From a virus (Duplodnaviria; Heunggongvirae; Uroviricota; Caudoviricetes): 12,705 nt of DNA. This document shows positions 1-12,705 of this stretch, piece by piece (position 1 is the first letter of the stretch; every line of letters begins with the position of its first letter). Location of the stretch: the IMG/VR virus record IMGVR_UViG_2778261165_000008; one strand, written 5' to 3'. Made by a program: the position numbers and the translations under genes. The notes beneath the pieces are model-generated. The model was not told where the DNA came from and did not search any database. It saw only the letters and a list, made by a program, of their open reading frames with translations.

Positions 1-73
1 CGCCCTGACTTTCCAGAACCATACGAACTGCCCGTTGACGGACCTCGGGGGAAAAACGTGTATTTTTAGTCAT
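1..73 (-). CDS. IS3-family transposase OrfA, N-terminal fragment (5' partial in window)
   Basis: ATG on the minus strand at 73..71 translates as MTKNTRFSPEVRQRAVRMVLESQG, the start of an IS3-family OrfA as I recall it for IS629. An AGAGG Shine-Dalgarno sits just upstream on the minus strand. The ORF runs off the window edge. Confidence 0.7.
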   Translation of the reverse strand, partial: MTKNTRFSPEVRQRAVRMVLESQG

Positions 74-127
74 CCTGTTTACCTCTTTCTCAGGGAGTTT
101 AGTCTCCAGGATTCCCGGGGCGGTTCA
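1..127 (-). mobile_element. Terminal part of an IS3-family insertion sequence (IS629/IS1203-like); element continues beyond the window start
   Basis: The minus strand read from 127 downward begins TGAACCGCCCCGGGAATCCTGGAGACTAAACTCCCTGAGAAAGAGGTAAACAGG and then ATG, which matches my recollection of the IS629 left inverted repeat and leader. The terminal inverted repeat is at about 103..127. Identification is from memory, not a search. Confidence 0.75.
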
Positions 128-1528
128 CAGAGAGCAGATGCCTTTTCAAAACAATATCAGACCCGGGAGCAGCAGAGAGCTAGTGAACTTGCAAAACTGG
201 AAAAGCTAAAGAATCAGTATTCAAAGGAAGAATATAATAATCTTATCGCTCAAATAAATGAGCGTTATAAAGATCCAAAGCAACCAAAGGCGAAAGGTTA
301 TTCTGATGATGCAGCCCAACGAATGATTGATCATCTGAATCAACAGAATGCGTTACTAAGTTCACAAGCTGAGTTGACCGTTAAATTAAGTTCCTCTGAA
401 CAGGAACTGGTTAAGTGGCGTCAGCGGATTGCCGACCTAGAGTCACGACCATCATCGAAATTAACCCAGGATCAGAAATCGCTTCTCTTACACCGGGAAG
501 AAATAACCGCGTTGATGGAGAAAAATGTTGCGATTGAAAAGAATAACAGGCTAATCAAGGAATCCGCCGAAATAACAGCATGGCGTGATTCATTGCAGGC
601 TTCGATTGATAATCGTCAGCAGGGGTATGATATTCAGATTGCTGGTTATGGGGTTGGCGATAAAAATCAGCAACGCCAGCAGGAATTACTGCGGATTGAA
701 CATGGATATAACAATCAGCGTCTGCAACTTGAACGTGACTATGCAGATAAATCCCGTGGAATGTCAGATCATGTTTTTCAAGAGAAAATGCAGGCTCTGA
801 ATGATGCTCTGGAACGGGAAAAAGAAATTGTCAGACAGAAAAACGAGCAGCTCGATATTCAGGCAGGAGACTGGGTTAGTGGTGCCTCCCAGGGATTCAA
901 TAACTGGCTGGATGACACTAAGGATATCAGTGAGCAGATAAAATCAACCACGACTCAGATGTTTGATGGGATGACCGATGCGCTGGGTGATTTTGTCACG
1001 ACAGGCAAGGCAAATTTTCGTTCTTTCGCTACTTCCGTGATTTCGGATCTTAGTCGAATGGCATTAAAGGCTTCAATTACTGGGATTTTCGACAGCATTA
1101 GTAACAGTTCTTCTGGGGGGATTTTAGGAACTATCGGGAGTGCTATTAGTAAATTTATTCCGAATGCAAAGGGCGGTGTTTATGAGTCTCCGTCATTGAG
1201 CACGTATTCGAACGGTATTTATGATTCCCCGCAATTTTTTGCTTTTGCAAAAGGGGCTGGTGTTTTTGGTGAGGCTGGACCGGAAGCCATTATGCCATTA
1301 ACACGAACTTCCGATGGTTCTCTTGGTGTCAGAGCTATTAATAGTAAAAGTGGTAATGGAGGCGGAGATATTACCTATGCCCCTGTATACCAAATCACTA
1401 TTCAAAATGACGGCCAGAATGGAGAGATTGGCCCTCAGGCAATAAAAGCACTTATGGGGATGGTTGATCAGCGGGTGCAGGGCAATCTGTTAAATATGCG
1501 ACGTGATGGGGGAATATTAAGTGGCTAA
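128..1528 (+). pseudogene. H: Tail tape measure protein (lambda gpH-like), 3' portion of about 466 codons, separated from its 5' part by the IS insertion
   Basis: The open frame 35..1528 has its first 31 codons inside the IS terminus, so they are IS antisense read-through and not gene sequence. From 128 on, the translation is coiled-coil rich and ends with a Gly-rich segment containing GGVYESPSLSTYSNG and FAKGAGVFGEAGPEAIMPL, which I recognise as the tape measure C-terminal region. It sits directly upstream of M as in lambda. Confidence 0.85.
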
Positions 1529-1859
1529 TACGGAAGAATTTCACTGGTTACCAGAGGATGGAATGAAAACAGAAAATAAACCATCGATAAAAACTGTAAG
1601 ATTTGGCGATGGTTATGAGCAACGAAGTCCAAATGGACTTAATCATTCTCTGCGCGTTTTCACCTGTGATTTCAAAGTTGAGGCGAATGAACGTGATTCA
1701 TTTGAAAAATTTTTAGCCCGGCATGAAGGCTATAAATCTTTTTTTTGGCGCCCGCCGGGTATTAACAGAAAAATCAGAGTGGTGTGTCGAACGTGGTCAG
1801 CGACAGAACATATCACCTATACCGATTTTTCGTGTCAGTTTGACGAAGTGGTGATCTGA
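1521..1859 (+). CDS. M: Minor tail protein M (lambda gpM family)
   Basis: 112 aa containing VRFGDGYEQRSPNGLN and FFWRPP, matching lambda gpM as I recall it. The GTG start at 1521 overlaps the H stop; the N-terminal FHW....GM appears to align with lambda FRW....GM, supporting the long start. An alternative ATG at 1563 has a GAGGA Shine-Dalgarno. The stop overlaps the L start (TGATG). Confidence 0.88.
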   Translation: MANTEEFHWLPEDGMKTENKPSIKTVRFGDGYEQRSPNGLNHSLRVFTCDFKVEANERDSFEKFLARHEGYKSFFWRPPGINRKIRVVCRTWSATEHITYTDFSCQFDEVVI

Positions 1860-2557
1860 TGCAGGACATACAACAGGAAACGCTGAATGAATGCATTCGT
1901 GCGGAGCAGTCGGCCAGCGTGGTGCTCTGGGAAATCGACCTGACCGAGGTAGGCGGGGATCGCTACTTTTTCTGTAATGAGCAGAACGAAAAAGGTGAGT
2001 CTGTCACCTGGCAGAGTCGGCAGTATCAGGCCTATCCCATTCAGGGGAGTGGATTTGAGATGAACGGCAAGGGCAGTGCTGCCCGTCCGACACTGACGGT
2101 CTCTAACCTGCACGGCATGATCACCGGGATGGCGGAAGATCTGCAGAGTCTGGTCGGCGGAACGGTGGTCCGGCGTAAGGTTTACGCCCGCTTTCTGGAT
2201 GCGGTGAACTTCGTCAACGGAAACAGCGAAGCCGATCCGGAGCAGGAGGTGATCAGCCGCTGGCGCATCGAGCAGTGCAGCGAACTGAGCGCGGTCAGTG
2301 CCTCTTTTGTACTGTCCACGCCGACTGAAACGGATGGCGCTGTTTTTCCGGGACGTATCATGCTGGCCAACACCTGCACCTGGACCTATCGCGGCGATGA
2401 GTGCGGTTATAGCGGTCCGGCGGTCGCGGATGAATATGACCAGCCGACGTCCGATATCACGAAGGATAAATGCAGCAAATGCCTGAGTGGCTGTAAGTTT
2501 CGCAATAATGTCGGCAACTTTGGCAGCTTCCTTTCCATTAACAAACTTTCGCAGTAA
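1859..2557 (+). CDS. L: Minor tail protein L (lambda gpL family), with C-terminal cysteine cluster
   Basis: 232 aa, the same length as lambda gpL. The ATG overlaps the M stop by 1 nt. The C-terminal region carries Cys residues (CTWTYRGDECGYSG, CSKCLSGCKF) consistent with the known Fe-S cluster of gpL. Confidence 0.9.
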   Translation: MQDIQQETLNECIRAEQSASVVLWEIDLTEVGGDRYFFCNEQNEKGESVTWQSRQYQAYPIQGSGFEMNGKGSAARPTLTVSNLHGMITGMAEDLQSLVGGTVVRRKVYARFLDAVNFVNGNSEADPEQEVISRWRIEQCSELSAVSASFVLSTPTETDGAVFPGRIMLANTCTWTYRGDECGYSGPAVADEYDQPTSDITKDKCSKCLSGCKFRNNVGNFGSFLSINKLSQ

Positions 2558-2562
2558 ATCCC

Positions 2563-3306
2563 ATGACAGAGACAGAATCAGCGATTCTGGCGCACGCCCG
2601 GCGATGTGCGCCAGCGGAGTCGTGCGGCTTCGTGGTGAGAACGCCGGAGGAGGAAAGATATTTTCCCTGCGTGAATATCTCCGGTGAGCCGGAGGAGTAT
2701 TTCCGGATGTCGCCGGAGGACTGGCTGAGTGCAGAAATGCAGGGAGAGATTGTGGCGCTGGTCCACAGCCACCCCGGTGGTCTGCCCTGGCTGAGTGAGG
2801 CCGACCGGCGGCTGCAGGTACAGAGTGATTTGCCGTGGTGGCTGGTCTGCCGGGGGGCGATTCATAAATTCCGCTGTGTGCCGCATCTCACCGGGCGGCG
2901 CTTTGAGCACGGGGTAACGGACTGTTACACGCTGTTCCGGGACGCTTACCATCTGGCGGGAATTGAGATGCCGGATTTTCATCGCGGGGATGACTGGTGG
3001 CGTAACGGTCAGAATCTCTATCTGGATAATCTGGAGGCCACAGGGCTGTATCAGGTGCCGTTGTCAGCGGCGCAGCCGGGCGATGTGCTGCTGTGCTGTT
3101 TTGGTTCATCGGTGCCGAATCATGCCGCCATTTACTGTGGTGACAGCGAGCTGCTGCACCATATTCCTGAACAACTGAGCAAACGAGAGAGGTACACCGA
3201 CAAATGGCAGCGACGCACACACTCCCTCTGGCGTCACCGGGCATGGCACGCATCTGCCTTTACGGGGATTTACAACGATTTGGCCGCCGCATCGACCTTC
3301 GAGTGA
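2563..3306 (+). CDS. K: Tail assembly protein K (JAB/MPN metalloprotease-like N-terminus plus NlpC/P60-like C-terminal domain)
   Basis: 247 aa. ALVHSHPGG with downstream S..D resembles the JAMM motif. A Cys (DCYTLF) and His (NHAAIYCG) pair resembles an NlpC/P60 catalytic core. The 3' end overlaps the I start by 103 nt in a different frame. Confidence 0.82.
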   Translation: MTETESAILAHARRCAPAESCGFVVRTPEEERYFPCVNISGEPEEYFRMSPEDWLSAEMQGEIVALVHSHPGGLPWLSEADRRLQVQSDLPWWLVCRGAIHKFRCVPHLTGRRFEHGVTDCYTLFRDAYHLAGIEMPDFHRGDDWWRNGQNLYLDNLEATGLYQVPLSAAQPGDVLLCCFGSSVPNHAAIYCGDSELLHHIPEQLSKRERYTDKWQRRTHSLWRHRAWHASAFTGIYNDLAAASTFE

Positions 3307-3845
3307 AAACGGGGTCCGAAGCCATCCGGGCGCTGGCCATGCAGATCCCGGCATTTCGTCAGAAACTGAGCGACGGCTGGTACCAGGTACGCATTGCCGG
3401 GCGTGATGCAGGTGAAACCGAATTGTCTGCCCGTCTTAATGAGCCGCTGGAAAATGGTGCCGTGATCCATATCGTGCCGCGTCTGGCAGGAGCCAAAAGT
3501 GGCGGTGTGTTTCAGGCTGTGCTGGGGGCGGCTGTTATGGCGGTTGCTATATGGATGCCGGGGGTAGGAATTATGGCGAGTAATCTGCTGTTTTCTCTCG
3601 GTGCCAGTATGACGCTTGGCGGTGTTGCACAGATGCTGGCCCCTAAACCCAAAACCCCCCGCACACAGACAACGGATAACGGCAAACAGAATACCTATTT
3701 TTCTTCACTGGATAACATGGTTGCTCAGGGCAATGTTCTGCCTGTTCTGTACGGTGAAATGCGTGTGGGGTCGCGGGTGGTTTCTCAGGAGATCAGCACG
3801 GCAGACGAAGGGGACGGTGGTCAGGTTGTGGTGATTGGTCGCTGA
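3204..3845 (+). CDS. I: Tail assembly protein I (lambda gpI family)
   Basis: 213 aa starting MAATHTLPLASPGMARICLYGDLQRFGRRIDLRVKTG, which matches lambda gpI as I recall it. It has a hydrophobic Gly/Ala-rich middle and the conserved C-terminus NGKQNTYFSSLDNMVAQGNVLPVLYGEMRVGSRVVSQEIS. A GAGAGAGG purine-rich stretch lies upstream of the ATG. Confidence 0.9.
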   Translation: MAATHTLPLASPGMARICLYGDLQRFGRRIDLRVKTGSEAIRALAMQIPAFRQKLSDGWYQVRIAGRDAGETELSARLNEPLENGAVIHIVPRLAGAKSGGVFQAVLGAAVMAVAIWMPGVGIMASNLLFSLGASMTLGGVAQMLAPKPKTPRTQTTDNGKQNTYFSSLDNMVAQGNVLPVLYGEMRVGSRVVSQEISTADEGDGGQVVVIGR

Positions 3846-3863
3846 TGCAAAATGTTTTATGTG

Positions 3864-3891
3864 AAACCGCCTCCGGGCGGTTTTGTCGTTT
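3864..3891 (+). terminator. GC-rich hairpin (8-bp stem AAACCGCC / GGCGGTTT, loop TCCG) followed by a T-rich tail, between I and J
   Basis: Inverted repeat read directly from the sequence at 3864..3883, followed by TGTCGTTT. It may be an attenuator or an mRNA-stability element rather than a full terminator. Confidence 0.3.
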
Positions 3892-3905
3892 ATGGAGCAT
3901 GACGA

Positions 3906-6900
3906 ATGGGTAAAGGCAGCAGTAAGGGGCATACCCCGCGCGAAGCGAAAGATAACCTGAAATCCACGCAGCTGTTGAGTGCGATTGATGCCATCAGCGA
4001 AGGGCCGATTGAAGGTCCGGTGGACGGATTAAAAAGCGTGCTGCTGAACAGTACGCCGGTGCTGGACAGTGAGGGGAATACCAATATATCCGGTGTCACG
4101 GTGGTGTTCCGGGCAGGTGAGCAGGAGCAGACACCGCCGGAGGGATTTGAATCCTCCGGCTCCGAGACGGTGCTGGGTACGGAAGTGAAATATGACACGC
4201 CGATCACCCGGACCATCACGTCGGCAAACATCGACCGTCTGCGCTTTACCTTCGGTGTGCAGGCACTGGTGGAAACCACCTCAAAGGGGGACCGGAATCC
4301 GTCGGAAGTCCGCCTGCTGGTTCAGATACAGCGTAACGGTGGCTGGGTGACGGAAAAAGACATCACCATTAAGGGCAAAACCACCTCGCAGTATCTGGCC
4401 TCGGTGGTGGTGGATAACCTGCCGCCGCGCCCGTTTAATATCCGGATGCGCAGGATGACGCCGGACAGCACCACAGACCAGCTGCAGAACAAAACGCTCT
4501 GGTCGTCATACACCGAAATCATCGATGTGAAACAGGGCTACCCGAACACGGCACTGGTCGGCGTGCAGGTGGACTCGGAGCAGTTCGGCAGCCAGCAGGT
4601 GAGCCGTAATTATCATCTGCGCGGGCGTATTCTGCAGGTGCCGTCGAACTATAACCCGCAGACGCGGCAATACAGCGGTATCTGGGACGGAACGTTTAAG
4701 CCAGCATACAGCAACAACATGGCCTGGTGTCTGTGGGATATGCTGACCCATCCGCGCTACGGCATGGGGAAACGTCTTGGTGCGGCGGATGTGGACAAAT
4801 GGGCGCTGTATGTCATCGGCCAGCATTGCGATCAGTCGGTGCCGGACGGTTTTGGCGGCACGGAGCCGCGCATCACCTGTAATGCGTACCTGACCACACA
4901 GCGCAAGGCGTGGGATGTGCTCAGTGATTTCTGCTCTGCGATGCGCTGTATGCCGGTATGGAACGGGCAGACGCTGACGTTCGTGCAGGACCGACCGTCG
5001 GATAAGGTGTGGACCTATAACCGCAGTAATGTGGTGATGCCGGATGATGGTGCGCCGTTCCGCTACAGCTTCAGCGCCCTGAAGGACCGCCATAATGCCG
5101 TTGAGGTGAACTGGATTGACCCGAATAACGGCTGGGAGACGGCGACAGAGCTTGTTGAAGATACGCAGGCCATTCTCCGTTACGGTCGTAACGTCACGAA
5201 AATGGATGCTTTTGGCTGTACCAGCCGGGGGCAGGCACACCGCGCCGGGCTGTGGCTGATTAAAACAGAACTGCTGGAAACGCAGACTGTGGACTTCAGC
5301 GTGGGCGCAGAAGGGCTTCGCCATGTGCCGGGCGATGTCATTGAAATCTGTGATGATGACTATGCGGGTATCAGCATCGGCGGGCGCGTGCTGGCGGTAA
5401 ACAGCCAGACCCGGACGCTGACGCTCGACCGTGAAATCACGCTGCCATCCTCCGGTACCACGCTGATAAGCCTGGTTGACGGAAGTGGCAATCCGGTCAG
5501 CGTGGAGGTTCAGTCCGTCACCGACGGCGTGAAGGTGAAAGTGAGCCGTGTTCCTGACGGTGTTGCTGAATACAGCGTGTGGGGGCTGAAGCTGCCGACG
5601 CTGCGCCAGCGCCTGTTCCGCTGCGTGAGTATCCGTGAGAACGACGACGGCATGTATGCCATCACCGCCGTGCAGCATGTACCGGAAAAAGAAGCCATCG
5701 TGGATAACGGGGCGCACTTTGACGGTGACCAGAGCGGCACGGTGAATGGTGTCACGCCGCCAGCGGTGCAGCACCTGACCGCCGAAGTCACCGCAGACAG
5801 CGGGGAATATCAGGTGCTGGCGCGCTGGGACACGCCGAAGGTGGTGAAGGGTGTGAGCTTCCTGCTCCGTCTGACCGTAACAGCGGATGACGGCAGTGAG
5901 CGGCTGGTCAGCACGGCCCGGACGACGGAAACCACATACCGCTTCAGGCAGCTGGCGCTGGGGCGTTACATGCTGACGGTCCGGGCGGTAAATGCGTGGG
6001 GACAGCAGGGCGATCCGACGTCGGTATCGTTCCGGATTGCCGCCCCGGCAGCGCCGTCGCGGATTGAGCTGACGCCGGGCTATTTTCAGATAACTGCCAC
6101 GCCGCATCTTGCGGTTTATGATCCGACGGTACAGTTTGAGTTCTGGTTCTCGGAAACGCGGATTGCGGATATCAGGCAGGTTGAAACCACAGCCCGCTAT
6201 CTTGGTACGGCGCTGTACTGGATAGCCGCCAGTATCAATATTAAGCCGGGCCATGATTATTATTTTTACGTTCGCAGTGTGAACACAGTCGGCAAATCGG
6301 CATTCGTGGAGGCTGTCGGTCGGGCGAGCGATGATGCGGAAGGTTACCTGGATTTTTTCAAAGGAGAAATCGGGAAAACACATCTGGCCCAGGAGCTGTG
6401 GACGCAGATTGATAACGGTCAGCTTGCGCCTGACCTGGCTGAAATCAGGACGTCCATTACGAATGTCAGCAATGAAATCACGCAGACCGTCAATAAAAAA
6501 CTGGAAAATCAGAGCGCGGCAATCCAGCAGATACAGAAAGTTCAGGTTGATACAAATAATAACCTGAACAGCATGTGGGCCGTGAAACTGCAGCAGATGA
6601 AGGACGGACGCCTTTATATTGCGGGTATCGGAGCCGGTATTGAGAATACGCCAGCAGGTATGCAGAGTCAGGTGCTTCTGGCTGCTGATCGGATTGCGAT
6701 GATTAATCCTGCGAATGGCAACACAAAGCCGATGTTTGTTGGTCAGGGCGATCAGATATTCATGAACGACGTGTTCCTGAAACGCCTGACGGCTCCGACC
6801 ATTACCAGCGGCGGTAATCCTCCTGCATTTTCCATGACACCGGACGGAAAGCTGACCGCTAAAAATGCAGATATCAGTGGCAGTGTGAATGCGAACGCCG

Positions 6901-7385
6901 GGACGCTCAACAACGTTACGATAAATGAGAACTGTCAGATTAAAGGGAAACTGTCAGCCAACCAGATTGAAGGCGATATTGTCAAAACAGTGGGTAAGGC
7001 TTTCCCGCGGGACTCCCGGGCACCGGAGCGGTGGCCATCAGGGACCATTACCGTCAGGATTTATGACGATCAGCCGTTTGACCGGCAGATTGTTATTCCG
7101 GCGGTGGCATTCAGCGGTGCTAAACATGAGAGAGAGCATACTGATATTTACTCCTCATGCCGCCTGATAGTGAAGAAAAATGGTGCTGAAATTTATAACC
7201 GTACCGCGCTGGATAATACGCTGATTTACAGTGGTGTTATTGATATGCCAGCTGGTCACGGCCACATGACGCTGGAGTTTTCGGTGTCAGCATGGCTGGT
7301 AAATGACTGGTATCCCACAGCAAGTATCAGCGATTTGCTGGTTGTGGTGATGAAGAAAGCCACCGCAGGCATCAGTATCAGCTGA
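3906..7385 (+). CDS. J: Tip attachment / host specificity protein J (central tail fibre, lambda gpJ family)
   Basis: 1159 aa. The N-terminus [25 protein letters not shown] and long stretches further in match lambda gpJ as I recall it. The C-terminal roughly 300 aa, the receptor-binding region in lambda, look clearly more divergent from my recollection of lambda J. Confidence 0.95.
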
Positions 7386-7403
7386 ATTTTATAACCCATA
7401 TAC

Positions 7404-7428
7404 GGGCGCCAGAAATGGCGCCTTTTTT
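7404..7428 (+). terminator. Rho-independent terminator downstream of J
   Basis: Palindromic GGCGCC stem (7405..7410 and 7417..7422) with loop AGAAAT, followed by TTTTTT at 7423..7428, 19 nt after the J stop. Confidence 0.6.
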
Positions 7429-7452
7429 ATTGCAGAAAAGCGAGAGGTAATT

Positions 7453-8052
7453 ATGCGTAAAGTTTGTGCAGCCATTTTGTCCGCAGCCATCTGTCTGGCC
7501 GTATCCGGTGCGCCTGCATGGGCGTCTGAGCAGCAGGCCACACTGAGCGCAGGGTATCTTCATGCCCGTACGAACGCTCCCGGCAGCGAAAATCTGAACG
7601 GGATTAACGTGAAATACCGTTATGAGTTTACGGACACGCTGGGGCTGATTACGTCATTCAGTTATGCCAACGCTGAAGATGAGCAAAAAACGCATTACAG
7701 CGATACCCGCTGGCATGAGGATTCCGTGCGTAATCGCTGGTTCAGCGTGATGGCGGGGCCGTCTGTGCGCGTGAATGAATGGTTCAGCGCGTATGCGATG
7801 GCGGGTATGGCTTACAGCCGTGTGTCGACTTTCTCCGGGGATTATATCCGCGTAACTGACAACAAGGGGAAAACGCACGATGTGCTGACCGGAAGTGATG
7901 ACGGTCGCCACAGCAACACGTCTCTGGCGTGGGGAGCTGGCGTGCAGTTTAACCCGACCGAATCCGTGGCCGTTGACGTCGCTTATGAAGGCTCCGGCAG
8001 CGGTGACTGGCGTACCAACAGTTTCATCGTTGGTGTCGGTTATAAATTCTGA
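7453..8052 (+). CDS. lom: Lom/Ail/PagC/OmpX-family outer membrane beta-barrel protein (lambda Lom-like moron)
   Basis: 199 aa with an N-terminal signal peptide (MRKVCAAILSAAICLAVSGAPAWA then SEQ). The body has alternating aromatic/hydrophobic beta-strand patterns and ends in a C-terminal Phe (GVGYKF), typical of outer-membrane barrels. It sits between J and stf as in lambda. A GAGAGG Shine-Dalgarno lies 5 nt upstream. Confidence 0.9.
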   Translation: MRKVCAAILSAAICLAVSGAPAWASEQQATLSAGYLHARTNAPGSENLNGINVKYRYEFTDTLGLITSFSYANAEDEQKTHYSDTRWHEDSVRNRWFSVMAGPSVRVNEWFSAYAMAGMAYSRVSTFSGDYIRVTDNKGKTHDVLTGSDDGRHSNTSLAWGAGVQFNPTESVAVDVAYEGSGSGDWRTNSFIVGVGYKF

Positions 8053-8078
8053 TTAGCCAGGTAACACAGTGTTATGAC

Positions 8079-8106
8079 AGCCCGCCGGTTCAGGCGGGCT
8101 TTTTTG
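8079..8106 (+). terminator. Rho-independent terminator downstream of lom
   Basis: Stem AGCCCGCC (8079..8086) pairing with GGCGGGCT (8093..8100), loop GGTTCA, followed by TTTTT at 8101..8105. Confidence 0.65.
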
Positions 8107-8116
8107 TGGGGGGAAT

Positions 8117-11100
8117 ATGGCAGTACGGATTTCAGGTGTACTGAAAGATGGCGCAGGTAAGCCGATACAAAACTGCACCATTCAGCTAAAGGCCAGGCGC
8201 AACAGCACCACGGTGGTGGTGAACACAGTGGCCTCAGAAAACCCGGATGAAGCCGGGCGTTACACAATGGACGTCGAGTATGGTCAGTACAGCGTCAGTC
8301 TGTTGGTGGAGGGATTCCCGCCGTCACACGCCGGGATTATCACCGTATATGAGGACTCAAAGCCGGGCACACTGAATGATTTCCTCGGTGCAATGACGGA
8401 GGATGATGTCCGGCCAGAGGCACTGCGCCGTTTTGAACTGATGGTGGAAGAGGTGGCGCGTAACGCGTCCGCAGTGGCACAGAACACGGCAGCCGCGAAG
8501 AAGTCAGCCAGTGATGCCAGCACATCTGCCCGTGAGGCGGCAACCCATGCGACTGATGCTGCAGGCTCAGCACGCGCAGCCAGCACGTCAGCCGGACAGG
8601 CCGCGTCGTCGGCTCAGTCAGCGTCTTCCAGCGCAGGAACGGCATCAGCAAAGGCCACTGAAGCATCAAAAAGTGCTGCCGCTGCAGAGTCCTCAAAAAG
8701 CGCGGCGGCCACCAGTGCCGCTGCGGCAAAAACGTCAGAAACGAATGCGGCAGCGTCACAACAATCAGCAGCCACTTCAGCATCCACCGCGACCACGAAA
8801 GCGTCAGAAGCTGCCACCTCAGCCCGGGATGCGTCGGCTTCAAAAGAGGCGGCAAAATCATCAGAAACGAGCGCAGCCTCGAGCGCCAGCAGCGCAGCTT
8901 CCTCGGCAACGGCGACAGCAAATTCTGCGAAGGCGGCAAAAACGTCCGAGACGAACGCCAAGGCTTCTGAAACGGCAGCGGGACAGAGTGCCTCAGCTGC
9001 GGCAGGCTCAAAAACAGCGGCTGCGTCGTCTGCCAGTGCCGCGTCAACAAGTGCCGGGCAGGCCTCAGCCAGTGCCACCGCCGCCGGAAAATCGGCAGAA
9101 AGTGCTGCATCGTCCGCTTCAACAGCCACAACGAAGGCTGGCGAAGCCGCTGTACAGGCCAGCGCAGCAGCGAGGTCTGCTTCCGCAGCGAAGACATCCG
9201 AAACGAATGCGAAAGCGTCGGAAACCCGTGCAGAATCCTCAAAAACGGCAGCCGCATCGTCCGCCAGTTCGGCAGCGTCATCGGCATCATCTGCGTCTGC
9301 TTCAAAAGATGAGGCGACCAGACAGGCGTCAGCAGCGAAGGGCAGCGCCACGACGGCATCCACGAAAGCAACAGAGGCGGCAGGCAGTGCGACGGCAGCA
9401 TCTCAGAGCAAAACTGCTGCTGAATCCGCTGCGACCCGTGCGGAAGCTGCTGCTGATCGTGCTGAAGAGATTGCCGGTGCAGTTGCGATGGAAGACGCAA
9501 GCCTTACAACTAAAGGTGTTGTGAAACTTAGCAGTGCTGTTGATAGCACCAGTGAATCGCTGGCCGCAACGCCAAAAGCAGTTAAAGCAGCCAATGACAA
9601 TGCGAATAGCAGGGTGCCATCTAACCGAAAAGTTAACGGAAAAGCACTGACTGCGGATATAACATTAACGCCGAAAGATATTGGTACTTTAAATTCAGTA
9701 ACGATGTCTTTCTCTGGCGGGGCTGGGTGGTTCAAACTGGCTACGGTTACCATGCCACAAGCGAGTTCCATCGTTTACATCGCATTGATTGGTGGCGCTG
9801 GTTACAACGTCGGTTCCCCACATCAGGCAGGCATTTCAGAACTGGTTCTACGAGCAGGCAATGGAAACCCCAAAGGAATTACCGGGGCTTTGTGGAAGCG
9901 TACAGCCGTCGGATTAACGAATTTCGCCTGGATCAACACATCCGGCGATACATATGATATTTACGTTGAGATTGGCAATTATGCGACTCGTGTAAATATC
10001 CATTGGGATTGTACTGCAAATGCGACAGTTTCTATTTATACATCGCCAACATATTCAGCGAGTAAGCCTTCCAGCGTTACCGATGGTGTTGTTTATACGA
10101 TGTATAGCACACATCAGAAACCGACGCCGTTAGATATTGGAGCACTGCCAACAACCGGAGGAACAGTTTCAGGTCCGTTGTCTGTTACAGGTGGATTAAC
10201 TGGTTCATTGAATGGTAATGCAAGTACAGCCACGAAATTGCAGACGGCAAGATCTATCGGTGGAGTTGTTTTCGACGGTTCTGCAAATATTAACCTTCCA
10301 GGTGTAAACACTACGGGTAATCAGAACACCACTGGTAATGCTGCAACTGCTACAAAACTTCAGACTGCAAGAAAAATATCCGGTGTTCCATTTGATGGTT
10401 CTACTGATATCACTTTAACCGCCGCGCATGTGGCTGCTTTTGCCAGAAGAGCAACGGATGCGTATGCCGATGCGGATGGGGGCGTTCCATGGAATGCCGA
10501 ATCAGGCGCTTACAATGTCACCCGCTCTGGCGACAGCTATATTCTGGTTAACTTCTATACCGGAGTCGGAAGTTGCCGGACCTTGCAGATGAAGGCGCAT
10601 TACAGAAATGGTGGTCTGTTCTACCGTTCTTCAAGAGACGGTTATGGTTTTGAAAGTGGTTGGGCGCAGCTTTACACCTCGGCTCATCCTCCTGCAGAGT
10701 TTTATCCAGTCGGTGCACCAATCCCGTGGCCATCAGATACCGTTCCGTCTGGTTATGCCCTGATGCAGGGGCAGACTTTTGACAAATCTGCCTACCCAAA
10801 ACTTGCAGCCGCTTATCCGTCAGGCGTGATCCCTGATATGCGTGGCTGGACGATTAAGGGCAAACCTGCCAGTGGTCGAGCCGTATTATCTCAGGAACAG
10901 GACGGCATTAAATCGCACACCCACAGCGCCAGCGCATCCAGTACGGATTTGGGGACGAAAAACACATCGTCGTTTGATTACGGCACTAAATCCACGAATA
11001 ACACCGGGGCGCATACCCATAGTGTTAGCGGTACGGCTGCTTCAGCCGGTGCACATACCCATTCGATGACATTTGTTTCAGGTGGTTCCAGTGGTGCTCC

Positions 11101-11344
11101 GGGAAGTGGAGCATCTGATTATTCTAAATACAGTGTTAACACTTCTTCTGCAGGCGCTCATACGCACTCTGTATCGGGTACTGCTGCAAGCGCAGGTGCA
11201 CACGCACATACTGTGGGTATTGGTGCTCATACGCACTCGGTTGCGATTGGCTCACATGGACACACCATCACCGTTAACGCTGCTGGTAACGCGGAAAACA
11301 CCGTCAAAAACATCGCATTTAACTATATTGTGAGGCTTGCATAA
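8117..11344 (+). CDS. stf: Side tail fibre protein (lambda Stf family), mosaic
   Basis: 1075 aa. The N-terminus [38 protein letters not shown] and the C-terminus from GAPIPWPSD to [11 protein letters not shown] match lambda Stf as I recall it. Between them are an Ala/Ser/Thr-rich repeat block, a divergent AT-richer domain and His-rich HxH repeats. The stop overlaps the tfa start (TAATG). Confidence 0.93.
8465..9480 (+). repeat. Ala/Ser/Thr-rich low-complexity coding repeats inside stf, with recurring [13 protein letters not shown]-type units
   Basis: Three similar DNA units lie near 8717..8760, 8933..8975 and 9187..9228. The biased composition produces long stop-free alternate frames on both strands (ORF-track entries 8340..9500, 8511..9524 and 8614..9363). 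Confidence 0.8.
10205..10415 (+). repeat. Two copies of a phage tail-fibre repeat motif (G-N-A[20 protein letters not shown]) inside stf
   Basis: [28 protein letters not shown] and [28 protein letters not shown] are encoded about 120 nt apart, with synonymous divergence at the DNA level. Confidence 0.75.
10911..11270 (+). repeat. His-rich HxH repeat region in the Stf C-terminal domain
   Basis: Repeated [24 protein letters not shown] and SHGHT motifs, including duplicated [17 protein letters not shown] units. Similar HxH motifs are known from distal tail fibre tips, for example in T4 gp37. Confidence 0.7.
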
Positions 11345-11919
11345 TGGTATTCAGAATGAGTGAACAACCACGGACCATAACAATTTATAATCTGCTGGCC
11401 GGAACTAATGAATTTATTGGTGAAGGTGATGCATATATTCCGCCTCATACAGGTCTGCCAGCAAACAGTACCGATATTGCACCGCCAGATATTCCGGCAG
11501 GCTTCGTGGCTGTTTTCAACAGTGATGAGGCATCGTGGCATCTCGTTGAAGATCATCGGGGTAAAACGGTTTATGACGTGGCTTCCGGCGACGCGTTATT
11601 TATTTCTGAACTCGGTCCGTTACCGGAAAATGTTACCTGGTTATCGCCGGAAGGGGAGTTTCAGAAGTGGAACGGCACAGCCTGGGTGAAGGATACGGAA
11701 GCAGAAAAACTGTTCCGGATCCGGGAGGCGGAAGAAACAAAAAACAACCTGATGCAGGTAGCCAGTGAGCATATTGCGCCGCTTCAGGATGCTGCAGATC
11801 TGGAAATTGCAACGGAGGAAGAAATCTCGTTGCTGGAAGCATGGAAAAAGTATCGGGTATTGCTGAACCGTGTTGATACGTCAACTTCACAGGATATTGA
11901 ATGGCCAGCACTGCCGTAG
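11344..11919 (+). CDS. tfa: Tail fibre assembly protein (Tfa family, TfaR/TfaQ-like)
   Basis: 191 aa, with [50 protein letters not shown] near the N-terminus. It closely resembles the E. coli K-12 Rac/Qin Tfa proteins as I recall them and is translationally coupled to stf. Confidence 0.9.
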
Positions 11920-12016
11920 GGTAAAACATATAAATTCTATAATTAGATGTATCTTTCCATTTACGGCAAGGAAGGGGGCTTGGAAGACGTAAAGCATCTC
12001 ACACCGAGATTATTTT

Positions 12017-12520
12017 TTATATGTCAGGTGTCTGAAGTTTTGCTTTGGCTCTTAAAATGGTTTGCCGCGAGGTTTTGAATTCCCGGGCAATGGCACTTAT
12101 ACTTACACCTGACTTAATTCGTTCGAATACCACCTGTTTCTGTTCTTCATTTAACACAGGTGGTCGACCAAAACGTTTCCCTGCGCCGCGGGCTCTTACT
12201 ATCCCGGAATGAGTGCGTTCAAGTAAAAGGTCTCGTTCAAATTCAGCGACTGCTGAAATTACTTGCATCATCATTTTTCCTGTTGGACTGGTCAGGTCAA
12301 TGCCCCCCAATGCTAAGCAATGCACTCTGATACCTGTTTCGGTCAGTTGTTCCACTGTTTTCCTGATATCCATTGCATTACAACCAAGGCGATCCAGTTT
12401 TGTCACAATCAATTGATCACCACATTTCAGGCGAGCAAGCAACCGGTTAAAACCAGGACGCTCACTGGTTGCTGCTGAGCCCTGAGAGATCCCCTCATAA
12501 TTTCCCCAAAGCGTAACCAT
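12017..12520 (-). pseudogene. pin: Site-specific DNA invertase (serine recombinase, Pin/Hin/Gin family), N-terminally truncated and lacking the catalytic Ser segment
   Basis: The 167-aa minus-strand ORF contains [36 protein letters not shown] and a C-terminal helix-turn-helix, all serine recombinase hallmarks. About 25 to 35 N-terminal residues, including the G-Y-x-R-V-S-T catalytic motif, are absent, and the first residues (MVTLWGNY) do not fit the family. The in-frame sequence upstream carries a stop. Confidence 0.8.
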
Positions 12521-12705
12521 GTGTGAATAAATTTTGAGCTAGTAGGGTTGCAGCCACGAGTAAGTCTTCCCTTGTTATTGTGTAGCCAGAATGCCGCAAA
12601 ACTTCCATGCCTAAGCGAACTGTTGAGAGTACGTTTCGATTTCTGACTGTGTTAGCCTGGAAGTGCTTGTCCCAACCTTGTTTCTGAGCATGAACGCCCG
12701 CAAGC
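12490..12705 (-). other. Unassigned stop-free frame running in from the window's 3' edge on the minus strand (C-terminal fragment of an unknown protein, or non-coding junction DNA)
   Basis: A minus-strand frame is open for about 70 codons (…[37 protein letters not shown], then stop) and ends about 30 nt inside the truncated pin ORF in a different frame. I could not assign a family. Confidence 0.2.

What the first reader, a model, noticed from the sequence alone, without database searches (positions are those of the whole stretch)
1..1528. IS629-like insertion sequence interrupts the tail tape measure gene
The first 127 bp match the terminal inverted repeat and OrfA start of an IS3-family element, on the minus strand. 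The tape measure reading frame continues directly from the IS boundary at 128 with no start codon or ribosome-binding site of its own. The 5' part of the gene must therefore lie on the far side of the IS, outside the window. An interrupted tape measure gene would block tail assembly, so this prophage is probably defective, yet the downstream M-L-K-I-J-lom-stf-tfa genes are all intact. That raises the question of whether the tail-fibre and lom genes are retained under selection, for example for lysogenic conversion or as a reservoir for recombination.
Basis: partly seen in the sequence, partly recalled or inferred. Interest (0 to 1): 0.55.

Follow-up and report, generated by a model that had tools for sequence, protein, structure and literature searches.

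The report
IS629 insertion in Rac tape-measure gene
A common E. coli jumping gene (IS629) very recently landed in the tail-length gene of a Rac-type prophage; this is an ordinary step in prophage decay, and the 127-base length of the IS piece comes from how the draft genome was assembled.

Summary
Window 1-127 (minus strand) is 127/127 identical to the left end of a 1310-bp IS629 copy, covering its inverted repeat and the first 24 OrfA codons. Window 128 is the first base of codon 612 of a 1077-aa tape measure gene that is intact in many E. coli genomes. The prophage is a Rac-family prophage.

The window is a complete short-read contig (NTPJ01000082.1). It ends in IS629 on the left and in IS10, inserted in pinR, on the right. 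The 5' half of the gene therefore cannot be seen in this contig.

Two complete sister genomes (Z1323CEC0004 and Z1323CEC0002) carry the matching left junction: TMP nt 1-1836, then the IS629 right end. Together with the window, which starts at TMP nt 1834, this gives a 3-bp CAG target duplication, the mark of a simple IS629 insertion.

The selection idea is not supported. Window 127-12481 has zero mismatches over 12,355 bp to an uninterrupted prophage, so the insertion is too recent for any decay. The sister genomes have already lost TMP-3', M, L and the start of K through a second IS629 event.

Verdict: real, ordinary and of an already known kind.

The parts
1..127 (-). Left (IRL) end of IS629. 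The imperfect terminal inverted repeat is at about 103-127, the Shine-Dalgarno AAGAGG is upstream of the ATG, and the OrfA ATG is at 73-71 followed by 24 codons running to the contig edge.
   Evidence: 127/127 identity to the 1310-bp IS copy in L003. That copy is 99.5% identical to an annotated IS629 (H88). The 127 bp match 5,781 E. coli records annotated as IS3 family transposase.
128..130 (+). CAG, the right-hand copy of the inferred 3-bp target-site duplication (TMP nt 1834-1836, codon 612, Gln).
   Evidence: In Z1323CEC0004 the left junction ends ...CTCAGACAG|TGAACC, at TMP nt 1836. The window's right flank starts at TMP nt 1834.
128..1528 (+). 3' remnant of the tail tape measure gene: codons 612-1077 (466 aa) plus the stop codon. 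It has no start codon of its own.
   Evidence: Collinear with the intact 1077-aa gene WP_000840618.1 with 0 mismatches. Pfam TMP_4 and Tape_meas_lam_C.
1521..1859 (+). Minor tail protein M homologue. Its start overlaps the tape measure stop codon by 8 nt.
   Evidence: Pfam Phage_min_tail 1.2e-31. Identical to WP_000024051.1 in PK8241.
1859..2557 (+). Minor tail protein L.
   Evidence: Pfam Phage_tail_L 7e-98.
2563..3306 (+). Tail protein K (JAB + NlpC/P60). Position 2635 is where the second IS629 abuts K in the sister genomes.
   Evidence: Pfam Prok-JAB and NLPC_P60. The K junction maps to window 2635.
3243..3845 (+). Tail assembly protein I. The start is the RefSeq one; the mechanical ORF begins at 3204.
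   Evidence: Pfam Lambda_tail_I 1e-23. Annotated in L016.
3906..7385 (+). Tail tip attachment protein J.
   Evidence: Seven Pfam J-protein domains.
7453..8052 (+). Lom (Ail/Lom outer membrane protein).
   Evidence: Pfam Ail_Lom 5.7e-125, full length.
8117..11344 (+). Side tail fibre (Stf).
   Evidence: Pfam phage_tail_N, Collar and Phage_fiber.
11344..11919 (+). Tail fibre assembly protein (tfaR).
   Evidence: Pfam Caudo_TAP 2.2e-42. Annotated tfaR in PK8241 and Z1323CEC0004.
12017..12481 (-). 3' part of the pinR-type serine recombinase gene. Its 5' end is cut off by IS10.
   Evidence: The Resolvase domain match begins at profile position 42. Homology to intact pinR stops at 12481.
12482..12705 (.). 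End of an IS10 (ISVsa5, IS4 family) copy inserted in pinR, running to the contig edge.
   Evidence: 100% match to the ISVsa5 transposase/recombinase junction in Z1323CEC0004 and Z1323CEC0002.

Best explanation
A 1310-bp IS629 element (IS3 family) transposed into codon 612 of the 1077-codon tail tape measure gene of a Rac-family lambdoid prophage of E. coli. It sits antisense to the tail operon and duplicated the 3-bp target CAG.

The insertion splits the gene in two:
- A 612-aa N-terminal fragment, terminated by the TGA that begins the IS terminus.
- A start-less 466-aa C-terminal remnant, window 128-1528.

The event is evolutionarily very recent, which is why every downstream tail gene is still identical to copies in uninterrupted prophages.

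The window shows only 127 bp of the IS because it is a whole short-read contig. The contig broke inside a multicopy repeat at the assembler's k-mer length.

By analogy with lambda gpH, loss of a full-length tape measure protein should abolish tail assembly. This copy of the prophage therefore cannot make infectious particles unless the IS excises precisely.

What is shown and what is inferred:
- Shown: the identity of the IS end, the in-frame break at codon 612, the intact downstream genes, zero divergence from an uninterrupted prophage, and the matching left junction in sister genomes.
- Inferred: that the left junction is adjacent in this very genome, and that the phage is tail-defective.
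For: - IS end 127/127 identical to a 1310-bp IS with TG...CA termini. That IS is 99.5% identical to an annotated IS629.
- Its products carry HTH_Tnp_1 and rve domains and an annotated programmed frameshift.
- Window 128 equals TMP nt 1834, which is codon 612.
- Z1323CEC0004 and Z1323CEC0002 carry TMP nt 1-1836 followed directly by the IS629 right end. They have 0 mismatches to window 2635-12705, including the IS10/pinR junction. This gives the CAG duplication.
- The exact 612-aa N-terminal fragment is on record on 63 contigs.
- An independent complete IS629 lies in the same gene and orientation, 177 bp downstream, with a 3-bp GAT duplication, in WP7-S18-ESBL-09.
- IS629 makes 3-4 bp duplications, and 62% of its copies in O157 genomes lie in prophages or prophage-like elements (PMC3271280).
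- 0 mismatches in 12,355 bp to the intact PK8241 prophage.
- The window is contig NTPJ01000082.1, 12,705 bp.
Against: - No single record shows both junctions around one undeleted IS.
- None of 5,426 complete E. coli genomes has the window's right junction.
- The two complete genomes with the left junction have a second IS629 and a deletion in place of TMP-3'-M-L.
- The far side of the IS in the source genome is unseen.
- Tail-defectiveness is inferred from lambda gpH, not tested.
Confidence: 0.88

Rival explanations
1. IS-mediated deletion or rearrangement rather than a simple insertion. In the source genome the far side of this IS629 copy abuts unrelated DNA, and the 5' 1.8 kb of the tape measure gene is lost or moved elsewhere.
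For: - This outcome exists in relatives. In MS 196-1 an IS629-type copy sits between a truncated DUF1376 replication-region gene and a 5'-truncated tape measure gene, with no target duplication (GCC...ATT).
- Z1323CEC0004 shows an IS629-adjacent deletion from inside the first IS to K.
- The window cannot show the far side.
Against: - The matching left junction with the overlapping CAG exists in genomes otherwise identical to the window.
- The 612-aa fragment ending at exactly this codon is on 63 contigs. This is most simply explained by an ancestral simple insertion that the window's strain retains.
Confidence: 0.09
2. The intact lom, stf, tfa and other tail genes are kept by selection, for example for lysogenic conversion or as a recombination reservoir, after the phage was inactivated.
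For: - In K-12 Rac, stfR, tfaR and pinR persist although the central tail genes are gone.
- In the sister genomes with the deletion, J, lom, stf and tfa remain.
Against: - Zero substitutions over 12,355 bp against an uninterrupted prophage. No time has passed in which relaxed selection could show, so intactness carries no information.
- K-12 lomR is itself split by IS5.
- M, L and the K start were lost quickly in the sister lineage.
Confidence: 0.05
3. Assembly artefact: the 127 bp of IS were joined to the tape measure sequence by misassembly, and the gene is in fact intact.
For: The IS segment is exactly k-mer length (127) and sits at a contig end.
Against: - Contigs of matching extent occur in other independent assemblies: 12,608 bp and 12,400 bp, from GCA_002227985.1 and GCA_015336325.1.
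- Complete long-read genomes hold the complementary junction at the same 3 bp.
- An intact gene would have let the assembler read through rather than break there.
Confidence: 0.02

Closest known systems
IS629 (isoforms IS1203 and IS3411), IS3 family, of E. coli and Shigella
   Same: - The end sequence is identical.
- The sister copy is 1310 bp with TG...CA termini.
- It has orfA/orfB with an annotated programmed frameshift, HTH_Tnp_1 and rve domains, and a 3-bp target duplication.
- It shows the known preference for prophage DNA.
   Different: Nothing of substance. Only 127 bp of the element lie in the window. The copy is 99.5%, not 100%, identical to the annotated IS629 of phage JLK-2012.
Cryptic prophage Rac of E. 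coli K-12 (ydaY-ynaA-lomR::IS5-stfR-tfaR-pinR-ynaE-ynaM)
   Same: - Same gene order and gene names: ydaY upstream of the tape measure gene, then lom, stf, tfaR and pinR.
- In genomes that carry the identical sequence, the same chromosomal flank: ydfK/ynaE, ynaM, uspF, ompN.
- K-12 Rac also has a truncated tape measure gene (ynaA) and an IS-split tail-region gene (lomR::IS5).
   Different: - K-12 Rac has lost the tape measure 3' part and M through J by deletion, and its IS is IS5 in lomR.
- Here M through tfa are all intact, the tape measure gene is split by IS629, and pinR is split by IS10.
Bacteriophage lambda tail gene block H-M-L-K-I-J-lom-stf-tfa
   Same: Same order of Pfam families: Tape_meas_lam_C, Phage_min_tail, Phage_tail_L, JAB/NlpC_P60, Lambda_tail_I, J domains, Ail_Lom, the tail fibre N-terminal domain and Caudo_TAP.
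   Different: - The tape measure protein is 1077 aa. My recollection of lambda gpH is 853 aa.
- The gene is AT-richer than the rest of the window: 43% against 54% G+C.
- Head genes in relatives are P22-capsid-like rather than lambda-like.

Membership tests
IS3 family / IS629 | Terminal inverted repeats with 5'-TG...CA-3' ends. | tested here: met
   The window's minus strand starts TGAACCGCCCCGG.... In the full copy with the identical end, the two ends match at 13/13 terminal bases and 22 of the first 25. Only one end lies in the window.
IS3 family / IS629 | Near-identity to a reference element named IS629, with a length of about 1310 bp. | tested here: met
   127/127 identity to a 1310-bp copy. 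That copy is 99.5% identical over 1310 bp to the element annotated IS629 in phage JLK-2012 (H88). ISfinder itself could not be queried.
IS3 family / IS629 | orfA and orfB overlapping, with a -1 programmed frameshift giving an OrfAB transposase. | not testable with these tools
   Only the first 24 OrfA codons are in the window. In sister copies RefSeq annotates 'programmed frameshift' and an AL1L pseudoknot, and the two frames are visible.
IS3 family / IS629 | A DDE (rve) catalytic domain and an N-terminal HTH. | not testable with these tools
   These lie outside the window. The product of the sister copy hits PF01527 HTH_Tnp_1, PF13276 and PF00665 rve.
IS3 family / IS629 | A 3-4 bp target-site duplication. 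| tested here: inconclusive
   Only the right junction is in the window. Combining it with the left junction of Z1323CEC0004 gives CAG/CAG, TMP nt 1834-1836. Within single genomes, independent IS629 copies show GAT/GAT (L004) and ATC/ATC (L005). The literature reports 3-4 bp (PMC3271280).
Lambda-type tail tape measure protein | Tape-measure Pfam domains and collinearity with an intact family member. | tested here: met
   Tape_meas_lam_C 1.2e-26 and TMP_4 6.4e-25. The remnant has 0 mismatches to codons 612-1077 of WP_000840618.1.
Lambda-type tail tape measure protein | A complete reading frame with an N-terminal TMP_2 domain and its own start codon. | tested here: not met
   The frame has no start at 128. 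The N-terminal 611 codons, which carry PF06791 TMP_2 in relatives, are absent from the window. It is a gene fragment, not a functional member.
Rac-family prophage | The gene order ydaY-TMP-...-lom-stf-tfaR-pinR. | tested here: met
   Window genes compared with K-12 Rac and with PK8241 and SE11. ydaY itself lies upstream of the window.
Rac-family prophage | Integration at the Rac locus, with the right flank ynaE/ydfK-ynaM-uspF-ompN. | not testable with these tools
   The contig ends in IS10 inside pinR. Genomes with identical sequence have this flank.

The most novel reading that the evidence does not exclude
The tape measure gene of Rac-type prophages may be a recurrent target of independent IS insertions across E. 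coli lineages. If so, this could reflect selection on the host to disable virion production while keeping the rest of the prophage.

Events seen here:
- IS629 at TMP nt 1834.
- IS629 177 bp further downstream.
- IS5 52 bp downstream of the first site.
- Nested ISKpn26 and IS629 plus a further IS5 in FDAARGOS_1249.
- An IS629-linked deletion in MS 196-1.

The evidence does not exclude this reading. It equally fits the gene simply being the largest and AT-richest target in a non-essential region.
Probability: 0.1. Interest if true: 0.3.

Novelty: already known. Interest (0 to 1): 0.1.

Why it matters
It matters little beyond annotation.

- **Annotation:** the 401-aa 'phage tail tape measure protein' that pipelines call on such contigs (ATG at window 323) should be treated as a gene fragment.
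- **Contig ends:** they reflect IS repeats in a draft assembly.
- **Prophage state:** this Rac-type prophage is a freshly inactivated copy. It offers a snapshot series of IS-driven prophage decay: intact (PK8241), then IS629 in the tape measure gene plus IS10 in pinR (this window), then a second IS629 with a deletion reaching K (Z1323CEC0004 and Z1323CEC0002).
- **Lineage marker:** the junction could serve as a marker for this chicken-associated E. coli clone.

Tried and rejected
1. **Same right junction in complete genomes.** I searched 5,426 complete E. coli genomes. None has it. The three full-coverage hits were multi-piece matches to other IS insertions.

2. **Recovering the source contig through the truncated tape measure ORF.** The edge-running 508-aa and TTG-started 497-aa forms are not in the protein collection. 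The 401-aa form is, but none of the long contigs carrying it has this junction.

3. **Testing for the 612-aa 5' fragment in the source assembly.** I did not run the search for homologous proteins, because the representative of that 90% cluster is a different, 859-aa sequence. The exact protein would not have been returned.

4. **Outward promoter or terminator at the IS/TMP junction.** Nothing above shuffled expectation.

5. **Literature on IS629 in tape measure genes or in Rac.** Nothing specific.

6. **The selection hypothesis.** Rejected as untestable on this copy because divergence is zero.

Full report
**1. Observation**

The first 127 bases, read on the minus strand, begin TGAACCGCCCCGGGAATCCTGGAGA. 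They run through a Shine-Dalgarno AAGAGG to an ATG at window 73-71, followed by 24 codons, MTKNTRFSPEVRQRAVRMVLESQG.

- This stretch matches sequence annotated as 'IS3 family transposase' in 5,781 records of the complete E. coli genome set, with a best E-value of 3e-59.
- It is 127/127 identical to the left end of a complete 1310-bp element in E. coli Z1323CEC0004 (L003 8946-10255).
- That element has TG...CA termini and imperfect inverted repeats, with 13/13 terminal bases matching and 22 of the first 25.
- It has two overlapping reading frames. RefSeq annotates them as one programmed-frameshift transposase with an AL1L pseudoknot. The product hits HTH_Tnp_1 and rve.
- It is 99.5% identical over all 1310 bp to the element annotated 'IS629' in phage JLK-2012 (H88).

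The 'IS629-like, IS3 family, minus strand' reading is therefore correct. ISfinder itself could not be queried.

**2. The tape measure gene**

- Window 128-1525 carries the Pfam domains TMP_4 and Tape_meas_lam_C.
- The same sequence is part of an uninterrupted 3234-bp, 1077-aa 'phage tail tape measure protein' gene (WP_000840618.1) in SE11, PK8241 and many other strains. In all, 702 complete genomes cover at least 80% of the 1-1528 query.
- Window 128 equals nt 1834 of that gene, the first base of codon 612.
- There is no start codon at the boundary. The frame is open back to window position 2, through the antisense IS sequence.
- The window thus holds codons 612-1077 (466 aa, 43% of the protein) and no N-terminus.
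- Annotation pipelines call a 401-aa protein from the ATG at 323 on such contigs. That is a fragment, not a gene.

**3. What the window is**

A look-up of the truncated Pin protein encoded at the right end returned contig NTPJ01000082.1 of assembly GCA_002463735.1. Its length is 12,705 bp, the window's exact length (L021). The window is therefore a complete draft contig.

- Its right end (12482-12705) is the end of an IS10/ISVsa5 copy inserted in the pinR-type recombinase gene.
- A second assembly's contig (NLKA01000085.1, 12,608 bp) has 97 bp less IS10 and is 97 bp shorter. By this arithmetic it carries 127 bp of IS at each end.
- The '127 bp' is therefore the overlap a k=127 de Bruijn assembler leaves at a repeat, not a biological boundary. 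This is my inference about the assembler.
- The contig cannot be extended, so the far side of the IS is not observable in it.

**4. The other junction**

Among 5,426 complete genomes, none has the window's right junction. Two have the complementary left junction: Z1323CEC0004 and Z1323CEC0002, chicken isolates from South Korea. It reads ...GGAATTGAACTCAGACAG|TGAACCGCCCCGGTTTTCC.

These two genomes also share the window's IS10/pinR junction at 100%. Z1323CEC0004, the copy that was aligned, has:
- 0 mismatches to window 2635-12705;
- a 5' tape measure part identical to that of PK8241.

The left flank ends at TMP nt 1836 and the window's right flank starts at nt 1834, so CAG is present on both sides. 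This is the 3-bp duplication expected of IS629, which makes 3-4 bp duplications (PMC3271280).

The N-terminal fragment is terminated by the TGA of the IS terminus. It is exactly 612 aa (WP_244566372.1) and is on record on 63 contigs, so the insertion is shared by a lineage.

A fully contiguous example of the same kind of event exists in WP7-S18-ESBL-09. There, a 1310-bp IS629-type copy sits in the same orientation 177 bp further into the same gene, flanked by GAT/GAT.

I conclude, at about 0.88 confidence, that the source genome has TMP(1-1836)-IS629-TMP(1834-3234). This remains an inference. The rival, in which the far side is unrelated DNA after an IS-mediated deletion or inversion, is real in relatives. 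MS 196-1 has IS629 flanked by GCC...ATT, with the whole head region missing.

**5. Context**

The downstream genes are M, L, K, I, J, lom, stf and tfa, by Pfam. All are identical to intact annotated CDSs of PK8241.

- Genomes with the identical sequence have ydaY upstream of the tape measure gene.
- They have tfaR-pinR-ydfK-ynaM-uspF-ompN downstream.
- This is the layout and chromosomal position of cryptic prophage Rac in K-12: ydaY-ynaA-lomR::IS5-stfR-tfaR-pinR-ynaE-ynaM-ttcC-uspF-ompN.

The window is the tail module of a more complete Rac-family prophage.

**6. Mechanism and consequences**

- Shown: the gene is physically split, with the IS antisense to the operon.
- Inferred from established lambda biology: gpH, the tape measure protein, is required to build the tail. 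No full-length tape measure protein means no tails and no infectious particles from this copy.
- Nothing near the junction looks like a promoter or terminator above chance.
- The M start overlaps the tape measure stop by 8 nt. M translation may therefore also suffer if it is coupled to translation of the upstream gene. This is speculation.
- pinR is also inactivated, by IS10.
- Both PK8241 and Z1323CEC0004 carry an annotated frameshift in a head-region gene outside the window. The prophage may therefore have been defective already.

**7. The selection question**

Window 127-12481 has zero mismatches in 12,355 bp to the uninterrupted PK8241 prophage. With no substitutions since the insertion, the intactness of M through tfa says nothing about selection. 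It is what any recent insertion looks like.

The sister genomes show decay already proceeding.
- A second, identical IS629 sits inside the first one, which is truncated to 1176 bp.
- It abuts K at window-equivalent 2635.
- This removes the remaining 134 bp at the left (IRL) end of the first IS, together with TMP-3', M, L and the first 72 bp of K.

**8. Novelty**

IS629 insertions in prophage genes are well documented. In O157 genomes, 62% of copies lie in prophages or prophage-like elements (PMC3271280). IS-driven erosion of Rac is textbook, as K-12 lomR::IS5 shows.

Several independent IS hits in this same gene turned up in passing. This could hint at a preferred target. It is equally expected for a 3.2-kb, AT-richer gene (43-45% against 54% G+C) in dispensable DNA.

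Interest is about 0.1.

Noticed in passing
window 12482-12705 (and pinR remnant 12017-12481, minus strand): The right end of the window is the end of an IS10/ISVsa5 (IS4 family) copy inserted in the pinR-type recombinase gene, removing about the first 40 codons. The identical junction occurs only in Z1323CEC0004 and Z1323CEC0002 among complete genomes. There, two ISVsa5 copies lie in tandem between the two pinR fragments.
   Followed up: partly
window 1 and 12705 (both contig ends): The window is the entire draft contig NTPJ01000082.1 of GCA_002463735.1. A sister contig from another assembly (12,608 bp) appears to carry exactly 127 bp of IS at both ends. This points to k=127 assembly breaks at repeats.
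   Followed up: yes
L003 7770-10255 (Z1323CEC0004); corresponds to window 128-2634 being absent: A second, identical IS629 is nested in the first, which is truncated to 1176 bp. It directly abuts K at window-equivalent 2635. This deletes TMP-3', M, L and 72 bp of K, as an IS-adjacent deletion in the sister lineage.
   Followed up: yes
window-equivalent positions 180 and 305 in L004, L008, L009 and L010; also L002 and L005: Several independent IS events hit the same tape measure gene in other strains:
- IS629 with GAT/GAT at window-equivalent 305.
- IS5 at the CTAG at window-equivalent 180.
- Nested ISKpn26 and IS629 plus another IS5 in FDAARGOS_1249.
- An IS629-linked deletion in MS 196-1.

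   Followed up: partly
window 11687-11885, + strand, inside tfa: Full-length Rfam match to RF02111 'IS009' (220.9 bits, gathering score 117). As I recall, this is a candidate small-RNA family, not an insertion sequence. It lies within the 3' part of the tail fibre assembly gene.
   Followed up: no
L016 3649-4043 and L003 2414-2808 (outside the window): A head-region gene ('protein singed') is annotated as frameshifted in both PK8241 and Z1323CEC0004, while WP7-S18-ESBL-09 has an intact 396-bp CDS there. The prophage lineage may have been defective before the IS629 insertion.
   Followed up: no
window 4506-6383, minus strand: A 625-aa open reading frame lies antisense to J. It is probably a by-product of the composition of the J gene.
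   Followed up: no
window 128-1528 against 1529-12481: The tape measure remnant is markedly AT-richer (43.4% G+C) than the rest of the tail module (53.9%).
   Followed up: no
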